33,204 nucleotides of DNA from Kipferlia bialata (GCA_003568945.1 BDIP01000078.1:1-33204), one strand, 5' to 3'; positions 4,345 to 33,149 are shown, numbered from the stretch's first letter. Translations and numbers: made by a program. Notes: generated from the letters alone by a model not told the origin.

Positions 4345-4667
4345 GTCTGCAGAGCATGTTTCAGCGTAGCTGATCGATACCCCAGTACCGGGGATCTTTC
4401 CACCACACTGTCTCAACATCGGGTGCCGATAGTACTCGATGGTGTTCTGTTATCTATGGGCCAGTGTTTTGTGTCCTTTCCTATCATATGTCACTCTTGT
4501 GACAAGTGCAGTTTCGCACGCCGTGTCACGCTTACTGTCTTGGTACCTATCTCAATAGATCAGCTTCCCGATTTGTATGTTGGTGTATACATATGTGAAC
4601 AACCATTACATCATCACACAACTGACTCAATTCAATATATTGTTGTCATTACGGGTGATCCCACTGC

Positions 4668-5158
4668 TTAGTAGGCCCTGGCGACGTATGCCCAGTGCTT
4701 GGCAGGGCGGCCAGTCAGGAAGCACTTGACGCCCTCCTCAGGCACGCCCTCTCCCATGCGGGTGCCCCTGATCTCTCCGCCAGTGGCCTCTCTGATCTGG
4801 TCGTCGAACTCCTTGGCCTCGATGTCCATGGAGTAGAAGGGCACGCGGGCAAAGCCGCCCTTGCCGCTGATCACAGCAGCAACCTGGGGGTGAGGGAGTG
4901 TACGTACTTGAAGGGTGTCAATGTATAGGTACATATGTAGGTATATATATATACACGTACCTCCTCGAGGGTTGTGCAATCTGTGACCCTGTCTGTCTGG
5001 AAGGCATCGGCAGCGGTGCGCAGGGAGTCGAGCAGCTCGGTCATCATGGTCCTGATGGTGGTAACCACATCGGCGTTGGGGATGGTTACCTTGTCGGCCT
5101 TCTGCTGGTCGCGCCTGAGGGCAACAACAACGCCCTGCTCCACGTCCCTGTTACCAAC
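4668..5158 (-). CDS. proS: prolyl-tRNA synthetase, C-terminal two exons only (4961-5158, 4668-4883); upstream exons absent from the window
   Basis: VGNRDVEQGVVVALRRD (anticodon-binding domain GxRD...RRD motif), GGFARVPF, and CFLTGRPAKHWAYVARAY-TAA, the typical archaeal/eukaryotic ProRS C-terminus. Confidence 0.88.
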
Positions 5159-5300
5159 CTGAGGGTGAGGGGGGGGGGGGGGGGAAGGGGGGGGAAGGAA
5201 GAATCTCATTATATGTATGTGTGTGCGCTTTGCTTCCAAGTGTTACTGCAACTAGATCTCCTTGTTCAGTTGACTTTGATATACCCCACCCCACCCTCAG

Positions 5301-14926: not shown

Positions 14927-15732
14927 GAACTGGCTGCCATTCTGTACTTCCTGGACAAGTCATACCTCAGGTACAGTCAATACATATGTATATTTATGTG
15001 AATATATGTATTATCTAATGATATATATAGTATGTCATCCTATTATATGTGTCATTCTGCACTTCCTGGACAAGTCATACCTCAGGTACAGTCATCTGTG
15101 TAGCATAGTATACAGCACTATATATATGTGAATATATGTATTATCTATTTATATATAGAGTATATATACTTTCTGTACATACATAGTATTATGACTGTAC
15201 GTCGTAGACAGGTATTGTCAAAGGTCTCAGTAAATATTAGTATTTACCATATAACTATTACCTTATGACAACCAGACCCTATATGTCAACTAATATTTCG
15301 ATACATTATATATATACAGTGGAAAGAGTGAAACTACATTTCTATTTGTGTTCTAACCACCAGACCCTATCTGTCGTACCTGAGCAAGGAACCAGTTAGG
15401 ACTGACAGAGGTATTGTTGGTGTATATATGTATATATACATGAATTGTCATTCGTAGTATATATTGTGTGCTGCTATACTGTAACTGAACAAGGAAGCAG
15501 TCATGTGCTGATTCATTGTAAATTGTATACATTGTATGTTTTTTGATATAAGTATACTCTTGTTTACACTGATTACATATCTCACTATACCTGCTTTACA
15601 TGTGGGAAACTGGTCAACACAACTACACTCATTATTGTCAGTCTATATAGTATACCTCACCCCCAGACTCCCTTCTGCACATGAAGGACCACCTGCTGCC
15701 AAAACTAGTGGACTTCACAGGTAATTATAACA

Positions 15733-15763
<31 letters not shown>

Positions 15764-26558: not shown

Positions 26559-28835
26559 TGGTGTTGGTGGCTATACTAGGGGACAGTCTAGGAAACATAG
26601 GTACATACTATATATATACTCATCATATACTATATGTATGTGTGTATATACATGAAGGCTGGACCCAGTGGCATCGGTGGCTGTGTTTGGGGATTTATTA
26701 GGCCCTGTAGGTATGATATCTTCTGTATATATTCTAGAAAGATGCAGCAGTGGATGTACTAGGGGACGGGCCAGGGTATATATGTACATATTCGTATACA
26801 TACTGATACAATAATAGTTACACACTCATCATAGCATCCACCTCCCGTGATCTGTTTGTGTCCAACAGCATATCCTTTAACAGTATATATTAATATATGC
26901 ATATATATGTATATATATGCAAATGGTATCAGTCGTATATACATATCCATCTAAGAACAGGTTCCACCTCCCGTGCTCTGTTTGTGTCCAACAACTCCAG
27001 CCCCAGACTGGTGCCACACCACACAGAGATGGGAGGTATTTATCATATACATAACAGTGTCTATAATATATTATATATATAGTATGAGTATAGTCTATTA
27101 CGTGTACCTATTGTATACAAAGCCCAGACTGGTGACACACCACATAGAGATGGGAGGTATGGATACGATCTTCACAATTGCACGTATAGTAGTAGTAACA
27201 CAGCCATATTCATTTCACACAGTGTATTCTTAACCTCAGAAGATACCCGGTATGTCCATAGTTGGTGTATATAGTACATAATATATATTGTTAATATACA
27301 TTATATAATATGTATTCTTAGCATCTAAGTTCAGGTGATACTTCTGATCTAATGGGTGTGTCCATACTTGGTGGGCCCCTGCTAGTACCTGAGGTGTACA
27401 TGGGTGATGGGGTGCACACACCCCACACGCACTGTAAGGGATGGTGCGTCATTGTTAGTGCTGTATGTATAGTACTTTACATATGTATATATATGTGTGT
27501 GTGTATGTGGGTGATGGGGTGCATACACCCCACACGCATTGTAAGGGATGGTACGTGACTGCATGTATGACATTTTCTTACCATATCATACCATATGTAT
27601 ATATACGTGTATACGTTGCATGCCATCACTCTTCTTGACCCCCAGGCTGTATGTCCCTGGGCGTGGCAAGTTGTGTTTGGGCAAGGGTAGGGATACATAT
27701 ACACTAGTATATGAATCTCTGGGTGTTTATGGATATGATGTTAGTAGCATTATCTATCTCTCTCTCTCTCTTTTCATGTTTGTGTTCGTGTTCACGGTTG
27801 ATGACACTATACACCCACTACACTATAACACCCACACTCTTTCTCTCCAGGTGTATATTCATACTCACTGTAGGCACTGCCGATGACATGCACACACTGC
27901 TGAGGAGGGCACTCAGGAACCCACAGGTGGGGATGATGTATATAAGTATTATTAGACATATGTACTAACCCCAGCCCCACATGTTGAACCCATGCTTCGG
28001 AACTGAAAATTGCCATTTTTCCATTCATATATATATACTTTTTGCCATCGATATATACTTTTTACCATCGATATATATAATATTTACCATCAAGATATAC
28101 CTATCCATCGATATAGGTGTATTCATTACATATATACATAATTGTGTGTATCCTGTACGTCTTTTACCCCCAGACCTCCCATGCCTCTGAGCTGACCATG
28201 CTCATACACATCTAATCCCATCCATCTATATACCTAATATATCCATACATATACATATATATATATTTGTATATATGCCACTACATTGACTCTAGACCCC
28301 CCATGCCTCTGAGCTGACCTTGCTCCATAGCTCTAGACACAGGGACAGAGACGGGCAGGGGGTGATAGGTACGATTATACATATATATATATATGTGTAT
28401 ATATATATGTGTGTGTCTGTGTGTGTGTGTGTGAGTGTGTGTGTATATATTTACACTGATACATGTATGTGTGATATGAATTGTACTGGTACACACAGGG
28501 AAAGAGATAGGTATGAAGAGCAAGAGAAAGAGATTGTATTACAATGTTCATTTTGATGACAATATCAACTTCACATATATGAGTAGTTGGAGAAATGGCG
28601 TGATGAATACAATAGTATGTATGCATTGAATATATATGAATGTCCTTAGTCTAATGGCAGGTGCCGAGACAGGGATACACTGGGGAGAGCCTGTGCCTCT
28701 GAGTCAGGTATATACTAGATATATTGTATATTGTTGTGTTGCAAAGAAACAGGAACAATTCTTTCATACAATTCCACTGTCTCTTTTGCCTTTACGGTAC
28801 TTCACTGATTGATCATCCATCTAGCATCTGCAATA

Positions 28836-28887
<52 letters not shown>

Positions 28888-31800
28888 CACCCCCAGGACC
28901 CCAAGGGAGAGGGATCGGCCATCCACATTGCACACAAGACATCGACTAGGTACACATGTGTGTATACAATGTAGATACCTAAATATATATATACATACCT
29001 ATGAATATATATAAATATATCTATATATATAAATACCAAGTATGTATAATTATAATATATATATACTTAAAATATAAATATAATACTTATCTCATCCACA
29101 TTGCACACAAGACAATAACTATGTACATGTGTGTGTATGAATTCCCATATTCATATACAACTACTGACATAGAAACGCTGCAGAACTGTTATTCTGGACG
29201 CCTTCAGATATATACCTCATTTATACTCATTATGTTTCCTCTCCTGTTATATGTATATATATGTATCCTCCCTATATGTACTTACCCATTAAATAGGATC
29301 CTGCTCATACATACTTACTGACTACAGAATACTGCTCTCTGGCACCCTGGACCCCTTCAGTGAGTGTGCACCCAGGGACATGCAGGGCATCATGCTGTTG
29401 CAGGTATATCAGTAGTGACTACATGTATGTATGTATATATGTGTATATATGTATATACTGTATATATGATGGGTGCACCCAAGGACATGCAGGGCATCAT
29501 GCTGTTGCAGGTGTGTAAGTGAATATATACTGAGTGTTAAATATGTATATATATGCATTTACTCTACATGAGGTTGTGGAGTGTGCACCCAAGGACATGC
29601 AGGGAATCCTGTTATTACAGGTATATGTATTCTTATATACAGGTTTAGTATAGTATTATTAATTATAGATAGTTCAGGCTACTGCATGTGTGCTATGCTT
29701 CATATAGGTTGGTTAGCAAGTATGCATGCAGAAAAAGTCCCTGAACCTCCCTCTCTCTCTCTCTTAATCCCTCTCAACATCCAAAGTGCCTACCTCTGCA
29801 CAATATGTGTCCTTCTTCTCTCATTATATCCTTTTCCGTCCCTCTCTCTCTCTCTCCCCCTCTACACCCTTATTCTCCAGACCCTCGGCATGTCCTTCGA
29901 TGTCAGCATAGTCAGTGCATACCTCAAGGTATAGTGTGTCATGAATGCGTAAATTTGCATATATATGTATATATATATAGTAAATAGAATTTAGTTATTT
30001 GTTATGTGTGTCAGCATAGTCAGTGCATACCTCAAGGTATAGTGTGTTACTCACAGTATGTATTTGTATTACTTCTATATTCTACTATATGTGTCAGCAT
30101 AGTGAATCAAGATGAGCATCCCTTAAGGTAAGTGGCATGTCTGTCTCTCTCTGTCTCAGTGTATATACACGTACACACACATATACACAAGCATATATCT
30201 TACTCTAGGAGCCCCTCCGCATCCCCTATCTCTCTGGCTCTCCGTCTCTCTCTCTCTCTCTCTCTCTCTATGCGTATATATATATATATATATATGTACG
30301 CATGTTTCTCATTCTAGGAGCCCCTCCCCATCCCCTATCTCTACCGGTCTGTGCCTCTGTCGAGTCCCACATTCAACCCAAGAGGTATGTATATATATAG
30401 TAGGTAAATTGTACGTTATTATACTATTATTGTACGTTATTATACTATATATTTATTGGTCTGTGCTTCTGTCCAGCCCCACATTCAACCTCAACCCTGA
30501 GGGTATGTGTATATATATTTGTACATCAACTTCATTTACCTTCTAAGCATTCAATATATATGTGCTACGTATTCTTTACGGTCTGTGCCTCTGTCCAGTC
30601 CAACATTCACCAAGGTGTGTGGATGTTGTCTTATAGTGCTAAATATAACACATACATGGAGATAGGGTTGTATATATAGACGAATGGATACCCAGCTACT
30701 GATACTGACACCGACTTATACCTACTGTATATGGATAAATGGTATACATGTGTTGTTCATTGTACTCATGTCTAACCCTTAGGCATGCTCGAGGTCCCAG
30801 CCGTTGCCATCAGGGACATGCCCTTGAGAACATGGTTCAGGTATACATATGTATACAATAGTACTCCCGTTGTCACTAGGCAAATAGGGTACTCCTTTGT
30901 AAATGCATACATACTGGTAATGTATTATCTTTCACGGACATGTCCCTCAGAACATGGTTCAGGTATTTATTATACATATATATATGTATATATATATGTG
31001 TGTGTGTGTGTATACATAGTATATATATACTATGCATACTATATTGATAGTCTGTTAATCAGAGACATGCCCTTGAGAACATGGTTCAGGTCCATTATAT
31101 AATACATGTATATATTTATGTGTATACACAATTTATATATATACCTGTATTTGCTTAGTATATTCTGTACTATCTACTACGGGGATAGTGTGTCTATCAG
31201 GGACATTCCCCTCAGAACATGGTTCAGGTATGGTATAATGCATATGATGCAGAAAGGACAAACTGTCATGTATCACTTTCACCCTCTCTTTCTACACCCT
31301 CATTCCAGGGTGACCCCCGATGCCCCACAGGGGGCACTCATGGTCAGAGAGGTACGGGATAATGTATGTATATACATATAGGCATATGTCAGATGTCAGG
31401 GGGAAATGATATAGTTGTGGATCTGTCTTGGTAGTGACACTGACACTGGTGTACTATTTTACTTCTATTAACCCTCCAGCTTGGCAGCACTGTGCACAAC
31501 GGTATGGTGGCCAGACAGTATGGCATTGATGATGTGCTCCCAGGGTCAGCACCGGCCATTGTATTCAAGGTATGGTATACATATAAATATATATATAACT
31601 GATTGATTGATTGTTCACACATTGTTCTTCTGACCTCTTTGGTCAATCTAGTACAAGACACATGTTTGACTATCTAACCCCCTAGGTCAATCTAGTACTA
31701 GACACATACACATATATAAGTATATATAAGTAAGTATATATAAGTAAGTATATATATATATATATATATATATAAGTATAAGAGTATATATCTAACCCCC

Positions 31801-32861
31801 CAGGCCAGTCTTGTCCTGGAGGGTGCCCTCACTGGGACACACTCCACCACAGTCAGTGTCAACACACACACCATGCCATCTAGACCCTTAGAGTCTGTTG
31901 GACCCTTAAGTTCTACTGAACCCTCACCTGTTATCCACGCATCCCCTCTTCTCTCCCACCAGTCGGACACCTTCTATGCACAGGTAGGAGGGTATACATA
32001 CATTCATTCATATATGATGATGTATTGGAACAAACTATGAATCTTGGCTGTGAAGGTATGTGTACACCCTCCGAGTTGATTTTGGACCCCATATTTACAC
32101 AGATAGAGTGTAGTAGTAATGAAATACGGTACAGGATCATACAAACTATCTGATTGTTTATCGGATTCACTATTCAAATACTTACCAATCGATATCGATA
32201 TATCGATATATACTCCATGCATATAACGTGTTGGGTATTCTAAATATGCCCTCTGACCTCCAGCACATACTGCCCAGTCCCTGTCTGTATACAGTGTCAG
32301 TAGGGGACGTTTCAGACGTCTCAGACGTCTCAGACACCCCTAACGCGGCACTCTACTCTGTCTCTCTCTCCCCTTCGGATAGAGTGGCCATTGCCACGCA
32401 CTCCTTAGTAAGTCCATACAGAGTGAGGAGAGGGGTACTGACAAGTGGTTCGGACGTTCCAGACGTCTCAGACGTCTCAGACGTTCCAGACGCCACAGAA
32501 GAATCAGACTCGGATGACACTATCCACCTCTTCATGTATGTAGCTGGGTATCTCGATACATGTGTTCTATACAATGCAGCTGTCTTATTGTCTCCCTCTA
32601 TTCATATGCCTGCATTGAGTCAATAGCTGTATCCCTATCTAGACAACCACTGCATATACTCAATTATATACATAGATATTCATACATATATATTTACACT
32701 CTGACCCCCTAGGTGTGTCGCTGGAACCCCCTATGAGAATCTCTCTCTATATATATATATTCTCTTTGTTATATATATACTTTCTGACCCCCCAGGTGTG
32801 TTGCTGGGTCCCCCTATGAGACCCTGTCCATATCAAGCCTGGTGTCCCTTAGAGACTATAG
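14927..32861 (+). CDS. UGGT: UDP-glucose:glycoprotein glucosyltransferase-like, 42 exons, incomplete at both ends. Exons: 14927-14970, 15364-15410, 15667-15720, 16021-16060, 16405-16511, 17386-17476, 17727-17798, 18356-18429, 18666-18732, 19110-19229, 19726-19789, 20249-20303, 20718-20759, 20961-21030, 21533-21602, 21765-21810, 22107-22194, 22615-22702, 22986-23072, 23347-23384, 23430-23501, 24272-24356, 24831-24891, 25455-25542, 25930-26050, 26394-26502, 26961-27035, 27335-27443, 27646-27686, 27874-27926, 28296-28368, 28661-28707, 28897-28949, 29328-29403, 29881-29928, 30318-30384, 30783-30840, 31309-31351, 31480-31569, 31804-31983, 32264-32535, 32796-~32861
   Basis: All exons join in one open frame. 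Segments collinear with recalled UGGT motifs: LAALAHRVYAPHV, LPTLSDVISNMP (cf. ISQNFP), LTLGGIQID...DPLALL, AIQWLNDV (cf. IxWLNDLE), PYTRNNVYHLV (cf. YIRKNLFHAV), VFVGDL, GTLDPFSECA (cf. VIDPLSE), EPLPIPYLYR (cf. LPLKSFYR), LVLEG, DTIHLFMCVAGSPYE (cf. INIFSVASGHLYE, start of the GT24 domain). Confidence 0.82.
15051..15094 (+). repeat. intronic echo of UGGT exon 14927-14970 3' end plus donor
   Basis: GTCATTCTGCACTTCCTGGACAAGTCATACCTCAG|GTACAGTCA vs GCCATTCTGTACTTCCTGGACAAGTCATACCTCAG|GTACAGTCA. Confidence 0.9.
16638..16777 (+). repeat. two echoes of exon 16405-16511 3' end plus donor
   Basis: GAGGACAGAGACTCTCTGCCTCAAG|GT and GAGGACAGGGACTCTCTCCCTCAGG|GT vs GAGGACAGGGACTCTTTGCCGCAAG|GT. Confidence 0.9.
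16931..17350 (+). repeat. four upstream echoes of the start of exon 17386-17476
   Basis: Repeated ACAC(T)...CCTTGTCCTGCACATGGG at ~110-130 nt spacing; the farthest copy is the most degenerate. Confidence 0.88.
18002..18021. other. assembly gap (N)
   Basis: 20 N with identical flanks on both sides. Confidence 0.99.
19306..19378 (+). repeat. echo of exon 19110-19229 3' half plus GTGAGT donor
   Basis: Translates DLDGMLLRARIITETLHSNTK vs exon DLDGMLLRARIITDTLHTNTK. Confidence 0.92.
20149..20207. other. assembly gap (N)
   Basis: 59 N. Confidence 0.99.
22239..22518 (+). repeat. three echoes of exon 22107-22194 3' end plus donor
   Basis: ATATCGGCACAGGA(G/A)CC...|GTA repeated three times downstream of the exon. 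Confidence 0.9.
23786..24312 (+). repeat. ~120-nt tandem array, 5 units, each holding an acceptor plus the start of exon 24272-24356
   Basis: YAG...CCCTGACC(A/G)TCACCCTCAAYG(G/T)AGAG at ~23793, 23918, 24031, 24157 and 24272. Confidence 0.92.
26557..26782 (+). repeat. three echoes of exon 26394-26502 3' end plus donor
   Basis: GTGG(C/A)T...GGGGA...|GTA copies, increasingly degenerate with distance. Confidence 0.85.
28839..28887. repeat. (GATT)n microsatellite directly before an acceptor
   Basis: About 12 GATT units followed by CACCCCCAG. Confidence 0.9.
30935..31233 (+). repeat. three echoes of exon 30783-30840 3' end plus donor
   Basis: GACAT...AGAACATGGTTCAG|GT ending at ~30962, 31089 and 31227. 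Confidence 0.92.
32306..32491 (+). repeat. two blocks of 9-nt coding repeats (DVS/DVP)n in exon 32264-32535
   Basis: GACGT(C/T)(T/C)CA units at 32306-32335 and 32453-32491. Confidence 0.85.
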
Positions 32862-33149
32862 GCATGTATATGAACACACTCATATATACACAAGGATATA
32901 TATACACATATATATCTACATGTGTATATGTTCTCCCCATGAGACCCTGTCCATATCCAGCCTGGTGTCCCTCAGGGACTATAGGCATGTATATATTGAC
33001 ATTTGTACATGTGTATATGTTCTCCATGTTAGACCACTTCATATACCATGTCATCTCCCACGCTCTTGAACTCTCTACCACACTCTTTCGCTTCTAGTGT
33101 TCTATCTAACACTTGTGACCGCCCCCTGCTACCTGCACTATATTGCGTC

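What the first reader, a model, noticed from the sequence alone, without database searches (positions are those of the whole stretch)
14927..32990. Gene-wide 'exon-boundary echo' architecture in a UGGT-like gene
Seen: most of the 42 exons have 1-4 partial copies (~25-70 nt) in the flanking introns, with strict polarity. Exon 3' end plus GT donor recurs downstream (e.g. 15051, 15822, 16638/16746, 17538, 17880/18056, 19306, 19866, 20367/20507, 22239/22360/22476, 25607/25763, 26159, 27121, 27507, 29470/29578, 30008, 30458/30579, 30935/31058/31196, 32934). Acceptor plus exon start recurs upstream (e.g. 15265, 16281, 17060-17350, 18244, 18980, 19501/19593, 19970/20080, 20599, 21330, 21991, 23786-24200, 25175/25343, 26281, 26830, 28165, 30200, 31675, 32703). 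I found no complete exon duplicate, and echoes usually begin or end in TA/CT microsatellite. Inference: a pervasive process duplicates splice junctions locally and builds much of the intron sequence. I know no named system with this pattern at nearly every junction of one gene.
Basis: partly seen in the sequence, partly recalled or inferred. Interest (0 to 1): 0.9.

Follow-up and report, generated by a model that had tools for sequence, protein, structure and literature searches.

The report
Half-exon echoes resembling fossil alleles
In one gene of the free-living protist Kipferlia bialata, most exons have silent half-copies, splice site included, about 115 bases away in the neighbouring introns, and these copies differ from the exons mainly at silent codon positions, so they are likely leftovers of other working versions of the gene pasted in during DNA repair.

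Summary
Confirmed. The window is a Kipferlia bialata contig; 14927-32865 holds 42 exons (one 3255-nt open frame) of a UGGT-like gene. 58 half-exon copies score above every control, at 25 of 42 exons: 25 of 25 upstream copies carry the exon start, 32 of 33 downstream copies the exon end. Copies are spaced about 115 nt apart; neighbouring genes have none. In the 1.45 kb where reads were laid, a DNA contig crosses one echo's new junction at ordinary depth and an RNA-type contig splices the outer sites only, so that echo is real and silent. New here: echo-exon differences are 3.5 times denser at four-fold than at zero-fold sites (95% 2.4-5.0; a never-expressed copy cannot exceed about 2), echo splice sites score like real ones, yet likeness stops at the GT/AG. 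The echoes therefore look like once-functional exon ends, likely copied from diverged alleles by out-of-register homologous repair, with polarity set by duplication geometry plus selection. Single junction-spanning repeats are known (human F7, CBS); this gene-wide, coding-constrained form was not found in ten literature searches. Genome-wide extent untested.

The parts
14927..32865 (+). 42 exons (38-272 nt) of a UGGT-like gene, TRXL and beta-sandwich region; both ends of the gene likely lie outside these exons
   Evidence: 3255-nt open frame containing P0006 1-910; PDB UGGT E 7e-4; PF18402 E 0.0012, below the curated cut-off; ESM Atlas Thioredoxin_12-15 clusters 0.91-0.93
14927..16060 (+). Exons 1-4, spliced at the outer sites in an RNA-type contig that runs on into the real exon 5
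   Evidence: Joints skipping 393 and 256 nt, GT..AG; four exon pieces contiguous in record 8; loose end equals exon 5, not its echo
15050..15085 (+). Downstream echo of exon 1 (34 of 36) with GT; its new junction is crossed by one DNA contig
   Evidence: X1 record 3, 14950-15090, depth 312, no differences
15822..32988 (+). The other 32 downstream echoes (exon 3' part + GT): 15822, 16636, 16735, 17539, 17888, 18055, 19303, 19866, 20366, 20499, 22239, 22352, 22477, 24487, 25608, 25767, 26159, 26567, 26657, 26744, 27123, 27501, 29093, 29473, 29579, 30009, 30458, 30579, 30932, 31058, 31196, 32932
   Evidence: GT kept in register in 31 of 33
16285..32738 (+). 25 upstream echoes (AG + exon 5' part): 16285, 16929, 17062, 17176, 17282, 18991, 19506, 19600, 19986, 20092, 20608, 21344, 22000, 22893, 23793, 23918, 24037, 24157, 25181, 25351, 26289, 26835, 28174, 30209, 32713
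   Evidence: AG kept in register in 21 of 25
23781..24312 (+). Four-unit acceptor array before exon 22 with a shared new junction and homologous spacers: whole-unit secondary expansion; acceptors differ between units more than the exon heads do
19303..19372 (+). Clearest coding-constrained echo (exon 10 tail): 10 synonymous and 4 amino-acid-changing differences in 22 codons
15000..33204 (.). AT-rich, TA/CT-microsatellite-rich compartment that holds all echoes (intron GC 0.35 against about 0.46 in a rough model of the neighbouring gene)

Best explanation
The echoes are genomic, silent half-exon copies spaced about 115 nt apart that were likely copied from diverged, working alleles of the same gene by out-of-register homologous repair. 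Shown: the geometry (tail+GT downstream, AG+head upstream), the spacing, outer-site splicing at the junctions tested, excess divergence at silent sites, real-quality splice signals and unrelated intron flanks. Inferred: in this AT-rich region introns of different alleles are too unlike to pair, so the 40-120-nt exons are the only islands of homology; an end broken or stalled in a TA/CT tract would re-prime inside the adjacent exon of the homologue by a few matching bases and copy its half-exon, splice site and intron end before carrying on. One breakpoint in the exon and one in the intron can only give the two orientations seen. Whole-exon copies and copies that capture splicing would be purged; survivors persist because the spliceosome takes the outermost pair. 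Unequal exchange between exon and echo would then build the 2-4-copy arrays and move formerly functional ends into silent positions. The result is intron growth by roughly half, without a function of its own.
For: Differences by codon position 59/34/127; dN/dS 0.23-0.30 against a floor of about 0.5 for a never-expressed copy. Four-fold 73 of 385 against zero-fold 81 of 1346 sites, K4/K0 3.48, bootstrap over 25 exons 2.43-5.01, same upstream (3.66) and downstream (3.38), 0.69 and 0.27 in the wrong frames; singletons 3.78, arrays 3.3. Simulation with fitted base-specific rates: 107 synonymous of 199 unique changes against 86 +/- 7 expected, P 0.001; replacements more conservative than expected, P 0.007. 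Using the nearest echo site would give a premature stop in 35 of 37 cases, so the constraint is unlikely to act in the present position. Echo acceptors score 7.6 against 8.1 for real ones and -2.1 for other intronic AG, yet share only 6.4 of 14 bases with their own real acceptor against 5.1 for unrelated pairs, p 0.10. Only 1 of 53 flanks exceeds the 95th percentile of unrelated flanks. About 10 whole-exon copies expected under random placement, 0 seen. In-phase continuation of an adjacent dinucleotide run in 5 of 12 junctions against 7%. Metamonads lack NHEJ, fornicates lack Rad51A and are argued to depend on HR (PMC8516963, section 8 read); the genome is reported as diploid (PMC5874029).
Against: No second allele was seen: no other letters in 1451 bases at 95% likeness or more, no relative in metagenomes, so the needed allelic divergence (silent sites about 0.15-0.2) is assumed. 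The 24 echoes at 92% identity or more show 15 synonymous to 20 replacement changes, which fits plain neutral decay, and changes private to one echo give pN/pS 0.43, not significantly below 0.5. A twofold faster silent rate on the exon side reproduces the synonymous count. Stop codons (1 against 4 expected, P 0.07) are not significant. Flanks are unrelated even beside 100%-identical echoes, which needs extra exon-limited homogenisation or very fast intron turnover. The 115-nt spacing and the restriction to this gene are not explained. Only 12 of 58 junctions could be tested for microhomology.
Confidence: 0.5

Rival explanations
1. Same-chromosome duplication with neutral decay: slippage or repair of a staggered break duplicates the half-exon and splice site and adds low-complexity filler; the copy then decays and selection alone gives the polarity.
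For: Explains polarity, absence of whole-exon copies and, with filler, why exact intron identity ends a median 4 nt (donor side) or 2 nt (acceptor side) from the exon. Echo changes at second positions run GC to AT 20 to 5. High-identity echoes fit the neutral ratio. Staggered-break repeats are described in Daphnia introns (PMC4202315, passages).
Against: K4/K0 3.48, 0.14% of bootstraps at or below the ceiling of 2; conservative replacements; filler would have to supply a full-strength branch site and acceptor in 15 exons. Daphnia exon-intron repeats are 4-12 bp, these 19-70.
Confidence: 0.2
2. Concerted evolution on one chromosome: echoes arise by ordinary duplication, but frequent conversion into the exon or collapse of the repeat exposes them to second-order selection, keeping codons and splice sites usable.
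For: Identity does not fall with distance in several arrays (exon 37: 0.87, 0.97, 0.91; exon 22: 1.0, 0.92, 0.98, 0.95); echo versus echo K4/K0 2.34 rather than 1; exon parts far more alike than flanks.
Against: Conversion frequent enough to impose selection should also erase silent differences, yet 19% of four-fold sites differ; conversion from exon to echo cannot lower dN/dS below 0.5 (inference). In practice overlaps with the best explanation if donors are homologues.
Confidence: 0.15
3. The echo splice sites work today: inner donor-acceptor pairs remove long introns in nested steps or act as decoys, or echoes enter minor isoforms.
For: Echo donors and acceptors score like real ones; in all 7 introns holding both kinds the order is tail-GT...AG-head with 51-172 nt between, an ordinary intron length; K. 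bialata has a reduced spliceosome, 87 of 174 proteins (PMC6679479, passages).
Against: Only outer joints seen in the RNA-type contig (contigs drop rare forms); 35 of 37 nearest-site isoforms hit a stop; splicing alone gives no codon-phased constraint; 17 exons have no echo above threshold.
Confidence: 0.08
4. Assembly artefact: diverged alleles or paralogues stacked through microsatellite nodes of a short-read graph.
For: It predicts exactly the silent-site excess, intact splice sites and unrelated flanks. The published assembly is short-read SPAdes of a diploid; a gap at 18002-18021 has 35 identical bases on both sides. Reads were laid on only 1451 of 18,300 bases.
Against: Logan contigs from another assembler cross the new junction of echo 15050 (record 3, depth 312) and run 657 nt from that echo through the weak echo near 15270 and exons 2-3 (depth 357) with no differences; unrelated contigs of the run have depth 412 and 438, and the piece shared by exon and echo 600. 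91% of sampled 31-mers of 20300-30200 are in that run. A junction from intron into mid-exon exists in no intact allele. No paralogue among shorter proteins or 50% representatives. The run may be the assembly's own sample, so it is an independent assembly, not an independent sample.
Confidence: 0.05

Closest known systems
Junction-spanning minisatellites of human F7 IVS7 (37 bp), CBS IVS13, lamin B2 (100 bp), PDGF intron 4 (81 bp) and 6-16 (PMC1557585; abstract and introduction read)
   Same: A unit straddling the exon-intron boundary repeats the donor into the intron; the most upstream donor is used in F7, lamin B2 and PDGF.
   Different: There one junction per gene, 5-25 copies, described as strictly identical in F7, 4 exon bases in F7, donors only. 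Here 37 exon sides in one gene, donors and acceptors, 1-4 diverged copies, 19-70 exon bases, mostly unrelated spacers and a coding-selection signal.
Intron gain by tandem duplication of an AGGT segment (PMC3265369, passages) and internal gene duplication (Gao and Lynch 2009; title seen in a reference list; text not held)
   Same: Short intragenic duplication leaves exon-like sequence inside an intron.
   Different: That route makes a new intron from a purely exonic duplicate; here existing introns lengthen, the duplicate includes an existing splice site, and no echo-bounded new intron was found.
Staggered double-strand-break repeats in Daphnia pulex neointrons (PMC4202315, passages)
   Same: Break repair leaves direct repeats plus inserted sequence and is proposed to lengthen introns.
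   Different: Exon-derived repeats are 4-12 bp at the far end of new introns; here 19-70 bp about 80 nt from the exon, with fixed polarity and silent-site bias.
Tandem exon duplication with mutually exclusive splicing (recalled; one example seen in a search listing)
   Same: Exon copies in adjacent introns evolving under coding constraint.
   Different: Those are whole exons with both splice sites; none of the 58 echoes is whole.
UDP-glucose:glycoprotein glucosyltransferase (UGGT)
   Same: Host gene: TRXL-type domains and beta-sandwich region match.
   Different: Very diverged; the catalytic GT24 domain was not detected in the window's protein.

Membership tests
Junction-spanning minisatellite (F7/CBS/lamin B2 type) | Repeat unit straddles an exon-intron boundary and repeats the splice site into the intron | tested here: met
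Junction-spanning minisatellite (F7/CBS/lamin B2 type) | Outermost (authentic) site is the one spliced | tested here: met
   exon 1 donor, exon 2 and exon 5 acceptors, exon 3 donor, in one RNA-type contig; other junctions rest on the open frame and P0006
Junction-spanning minisatellite (F7/CBS/lamin B2 type) | Whole units are homologous head-to-tail repeats | tested here: not met
   6 of 28 spacer pairs within arrays exceed the unrelated 95th percentile; 1 of 53 flanks; met in the exon 22 array
Junction-spanning minisatellite (F7/CBS/lamin B2 type) | Copy number varies between alleles | not testable with these tools
   one sample only
Intron gain by tandem exonic duplication (AGGT model) | Duplicate is purely exonic and the new intron is bounded by the duplicated AG|GT | tested here: not met
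   echoes include an existing splice site and lie inside introns, a median 79 nt from the exon
Tandem exon duplication / mutually exclusive exons | Whole exon with both splice sites | tested here: not met
   0 of 58; largest 82% of its exon
Introner or other mobile intron family | Introns of unrelated positions share sequence | tested here: not met
   self-BLAST shows only short microsatellite-type matches at long range within this window; rest of genome not available
UGGT | TRXL thioredoxin-like domains and beta-sandwich region | tested here: met
   PDB UGGT E 7e-4; atlas clusters PF18400-18403, 0.91-0.93; Pfam PF18402 19.4 bits, below cut-off 30
UGGT | C-terminal GT24 catalytic domain | tested here: inconclusive
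   not in P0006; the RNA-type contig is 4164 nt against 3255 nt of exons here, so it may lie beyond the contig end

The most novel reading that the evidence does not exclude
A homologue-templated repair route, favoured in a lineage without NHEJ and Rad51A, pastes half-exons with their splice sites from other alleles next to the working exon throughout the AT-rich part of the Kipferlia genome. It would be a main engine of intron growth there and would leave, in one haplotype, a readable archive of past alleles at thousands of junctions, plus a natural test of outermost splice-site choice by a reduced spliceosome.
Probability: 0.3. Interest if true: 0.85.

Novelty: new variant of a known kind. 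Interest (0 to 1): 0.66.

Why it matters
Where intron sequence comes from is an open question; here about half of one gene's intron length traces to repeated copying of its own junctions. If the echoes are fossil alleles, a single genome records the population's past coding variation and the footprint of an unusual repair system, both measurable genome-wide with public data. The gene also offers 52 in-register, consensus-quality but apparently ignored splice sites in an organism with a reduced spliceosome, and echoes mislead annotation: the public model ends by splicing into one.

Tried and rejected
No whole genome is held, so genome-wide extent is untested. Read laying covered only 14800-16250; the other echoes have no junction-level read check, and contigs cannot show rare splice forms. 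No run is on record as RNA; X2 is a guess, though its 0.10 word share equals the 0.096 expected for spliced mRNA. Metagenome scan with P0006: 39 pattern matches, none a relative. No shorter homologue among 7995 candidates; only P0006 itself among 1.84 billion representatives. My exon model of the neighbouring gene was auto-snapped and has errors (three negative intron lengths; its single hit of 39 came from an unbounded last exon), so I rely on the annotation-free scan in the same call (34). A first 43-exon model with an exon at 23630 was dropped: P0006 skips it and it resembles the tail of exon 21 (score 29, below threshold). Whole-exon duplication followed by erosion was rejected because it predicts four orientation classes and two are empty. 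Inverted copies: none above 25. Ten literature searches found no description of this pattern; the genome paper (parts 1-3 of 6 read, plus a term search) has no hit for 'duplicat' or 'microsatellite'; its supplements were not opened. Earlier-findings look-ups by place and two word sets were empty.

Full report
Identity. A ProRS C-terminal exon and exon 40 of the echo gene match Kipferlia bialata proteins at 100%, each on a contig of 33,204 nt, the window's length. Reading AG/GT boundaries gives 42 exons between 14927 and 32865 that join to 3255 nt without a stop and contain residues 1-910 of P0006. P0006 matches a solved UGGT at E 7e-4, Pfam Thioredoxin_14 below its cut-off and UGGT-type thioredoxin-like clusters in the ESM Atlas at 0.91-0.93. 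'UGGT-like' stands; the catalytic domain was not detected.

Observation. Exon-only local alignment gave 67 hits in adjacent introns; I kept the 58 above the best of 1681 non-adjacent controls and dropped 9. They lie at 25 of 42 exons. All 25 upstream echoes reach the exon start, 32 of 33 downstream echoes reach the exon end; an anchored scan gave 32 and 21 in these classes and 0 and 0 in the opposite ones. AG is kept in register in 21 of 25, GT in 31 of 33. Successive copies are a median 115.5 nt apart (quartiles 107-127, range 73-189). Units span 48% of the intron bases; median intron length is 344 nt with them and 189 without. The pattern is local: 2 of 518 test windows in the first 15 kb against 83 of 285 after it, where GC drops and TA/CT runs become several times denser.

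Is it in the DNA? On 14800-16250, the only stretch laid, a contig of run X1 covers 14950-15090 without a difference at depth 312, crossing the intron-to-mid-exon junction of the first echo with 100 and 40 bases on its sides; the next runs 657 nt from that echo through exons 2 and 3 at depth 357; the piece shared by exon and echo has depth 600; unrelated contigs 412 and 438. Echo 15822 lies in a contig of depth 334, but a microsatellite break precedes it. 91% of sampled words of 20300-30200 are in X1. X1 may be the assembly's own sample. The RNA-type contig of X2 joins exons 1-4 at the outer sites and continues into the real exon 5. Thus one strict and one weak echo are directly shown to be genomic and skipped; the rest is extrapolation.

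If an echo were never expressed, it would change equally at all sites while the exon changes at most at silent ones, so silent-site divergence cannot exceed about twice replacement-site divergence (inference, equal mutation rates assumed). Observed: 59/34/127 differences by codon position, dN/dS 0.23-0.30; K4/K0 3.48, bootstrap by exon 2.43-5.01, robust to trimming ends (3.3) and to one echo per exon side (2.97-4.6), reversed in wrong frames; singletons alone 3.78 with a wide interval, 2.08-6.01. A simulation with fitted base-specific rates is exceeded at P 0.001 and replacements are more conservative than chance, P 0.007. Against: the 24 most similar echoes fit the neutral ratio (15 to 20), private changes give 0.43, the stop deficit is not significant, and doubling the exon's silent rate removes the excess. 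Second, echo acceptors and donors score like real ones and far above other intronic AG/GT, but identity to the exon's own flank collapses at the splice site: about 0.9 on the exon side, 0.2-0.6 at positions -3 to -8; exact intronic runs are a median 4 and 2 nt; 1 of 53 flanks beats unrelated flanks, none of the 20 beside echoes of 94% or more. Third, using the nearest echo site gives a premature stop in 35 of 37 cases.

Mechanism. A unit with one breakpoint in an exon and one in an intron can only leave tail+GT downstream or AG+head upstream, so the polarity needs no special machinery; about 10 whole-exon copies would be expected from random placement of such units and none survives (a rough simulation). 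What needs explaining is that the copies look like independently evolved, once-working versions of the same junction. Copying from a diverged homologue does this in one step, and unequal exchange between exon and echo extends it: in the exon 22 array all units share one new junction and related spacers, yet their acceptors differ while staying consensus-like, and identity does not fall with distance in several arrays. Dinucleotide runs are enriched at new junctions (41 of 58 against 44%), though no more than after real donors, and 5 of 12 testable junctions continue the run in phase. Metamonads lack NHEJ and fornicates lack Rad51A (PMC8516963, section 8 and passages). No second allele was available, so the template is inferred; I give this 0.5, same-chromosome duplication with neutral decay 0.2, conversion-driven second-order selection 0.15, present splicing function 0.08, artefact 0.05. 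The narrow spacing and the restriction to this gene remain unexplained; a lower bound from splice-site competition is one untested idea.

Known kin and novelty. Repeats that reiterate a donor into an intron, with the first site used, are known in human F7, CBS, lamin B2, PDGF and 6-16 (PMC1557585, abstract and introduction). It works like these in geometry and site choice but fails their homogeneous-unit feature. AGGT-type intron gain (PMC3265369, passages), Daphnia break-repair repeats (PMC4202315, passages) and whole-exon duplication differ as listed. Ten full-text searches found no gene-wide, two-sided, coding-constrained case, and the K. bialata genome paper (parts 1-3 of 6 and a term search) does not mention it; most subscription journals are outside the library. 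Verdict: real, a new variant of a known kind, interest 0.66; it would rise to about 0.85 if the fossil-allele signal holds genome-wide.

Noticed in passing
window 32796-32988: The public model P0006 ends in PGVPQGL, which is read from inside the exon 42 echo after an internal AG: the predictor apparently spliced into the echo because the true next exon is beyond the contig end.
   Followed up: partly
window 14927-18429: P0006 starts at a Met in exon 8; exons 1-7 extend the frame by 174 codons and exons 1-5 are joined in the RNA-type contig, which has 93 further bases in front that did not lay on 14800-16250.
   Followed up: partly
window 14682-14926: Poly-G, poly-A and CT tracts mark an abrupt switch from the ~49% GC compartment to the AT-rich echo compartment; could be a real boundary or an assembly join.
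   Followed up: no
window 18002-18021: Scaffold gap with 35 identical bases on both sides, probably an overlap left unmerged.
   Followed up: partly
window 32264-32535: Exon 41 carries two clusters of a 9-nt coding repeat (DVS/DVP), an exon-internal in-frame duplication.
   Followed up: no
window 30090-30127: A second, interrupted tail-like copy of exon 35 with GT follows the 28 of 28 echo; below threshold, suggests more decayed echoes than counted.
   Followed up: no
window 4660-5160: 3' exons of an archaeal-type prolyl-tRNA synthetase on the minus strand; the rest of the gene is not evident before the next gene starts near 5300.
   Followed up: no
window 28839-28886: (GATT)n tetranucleotide run ending directly at the exon 33 acceptor.
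   Followed up: no
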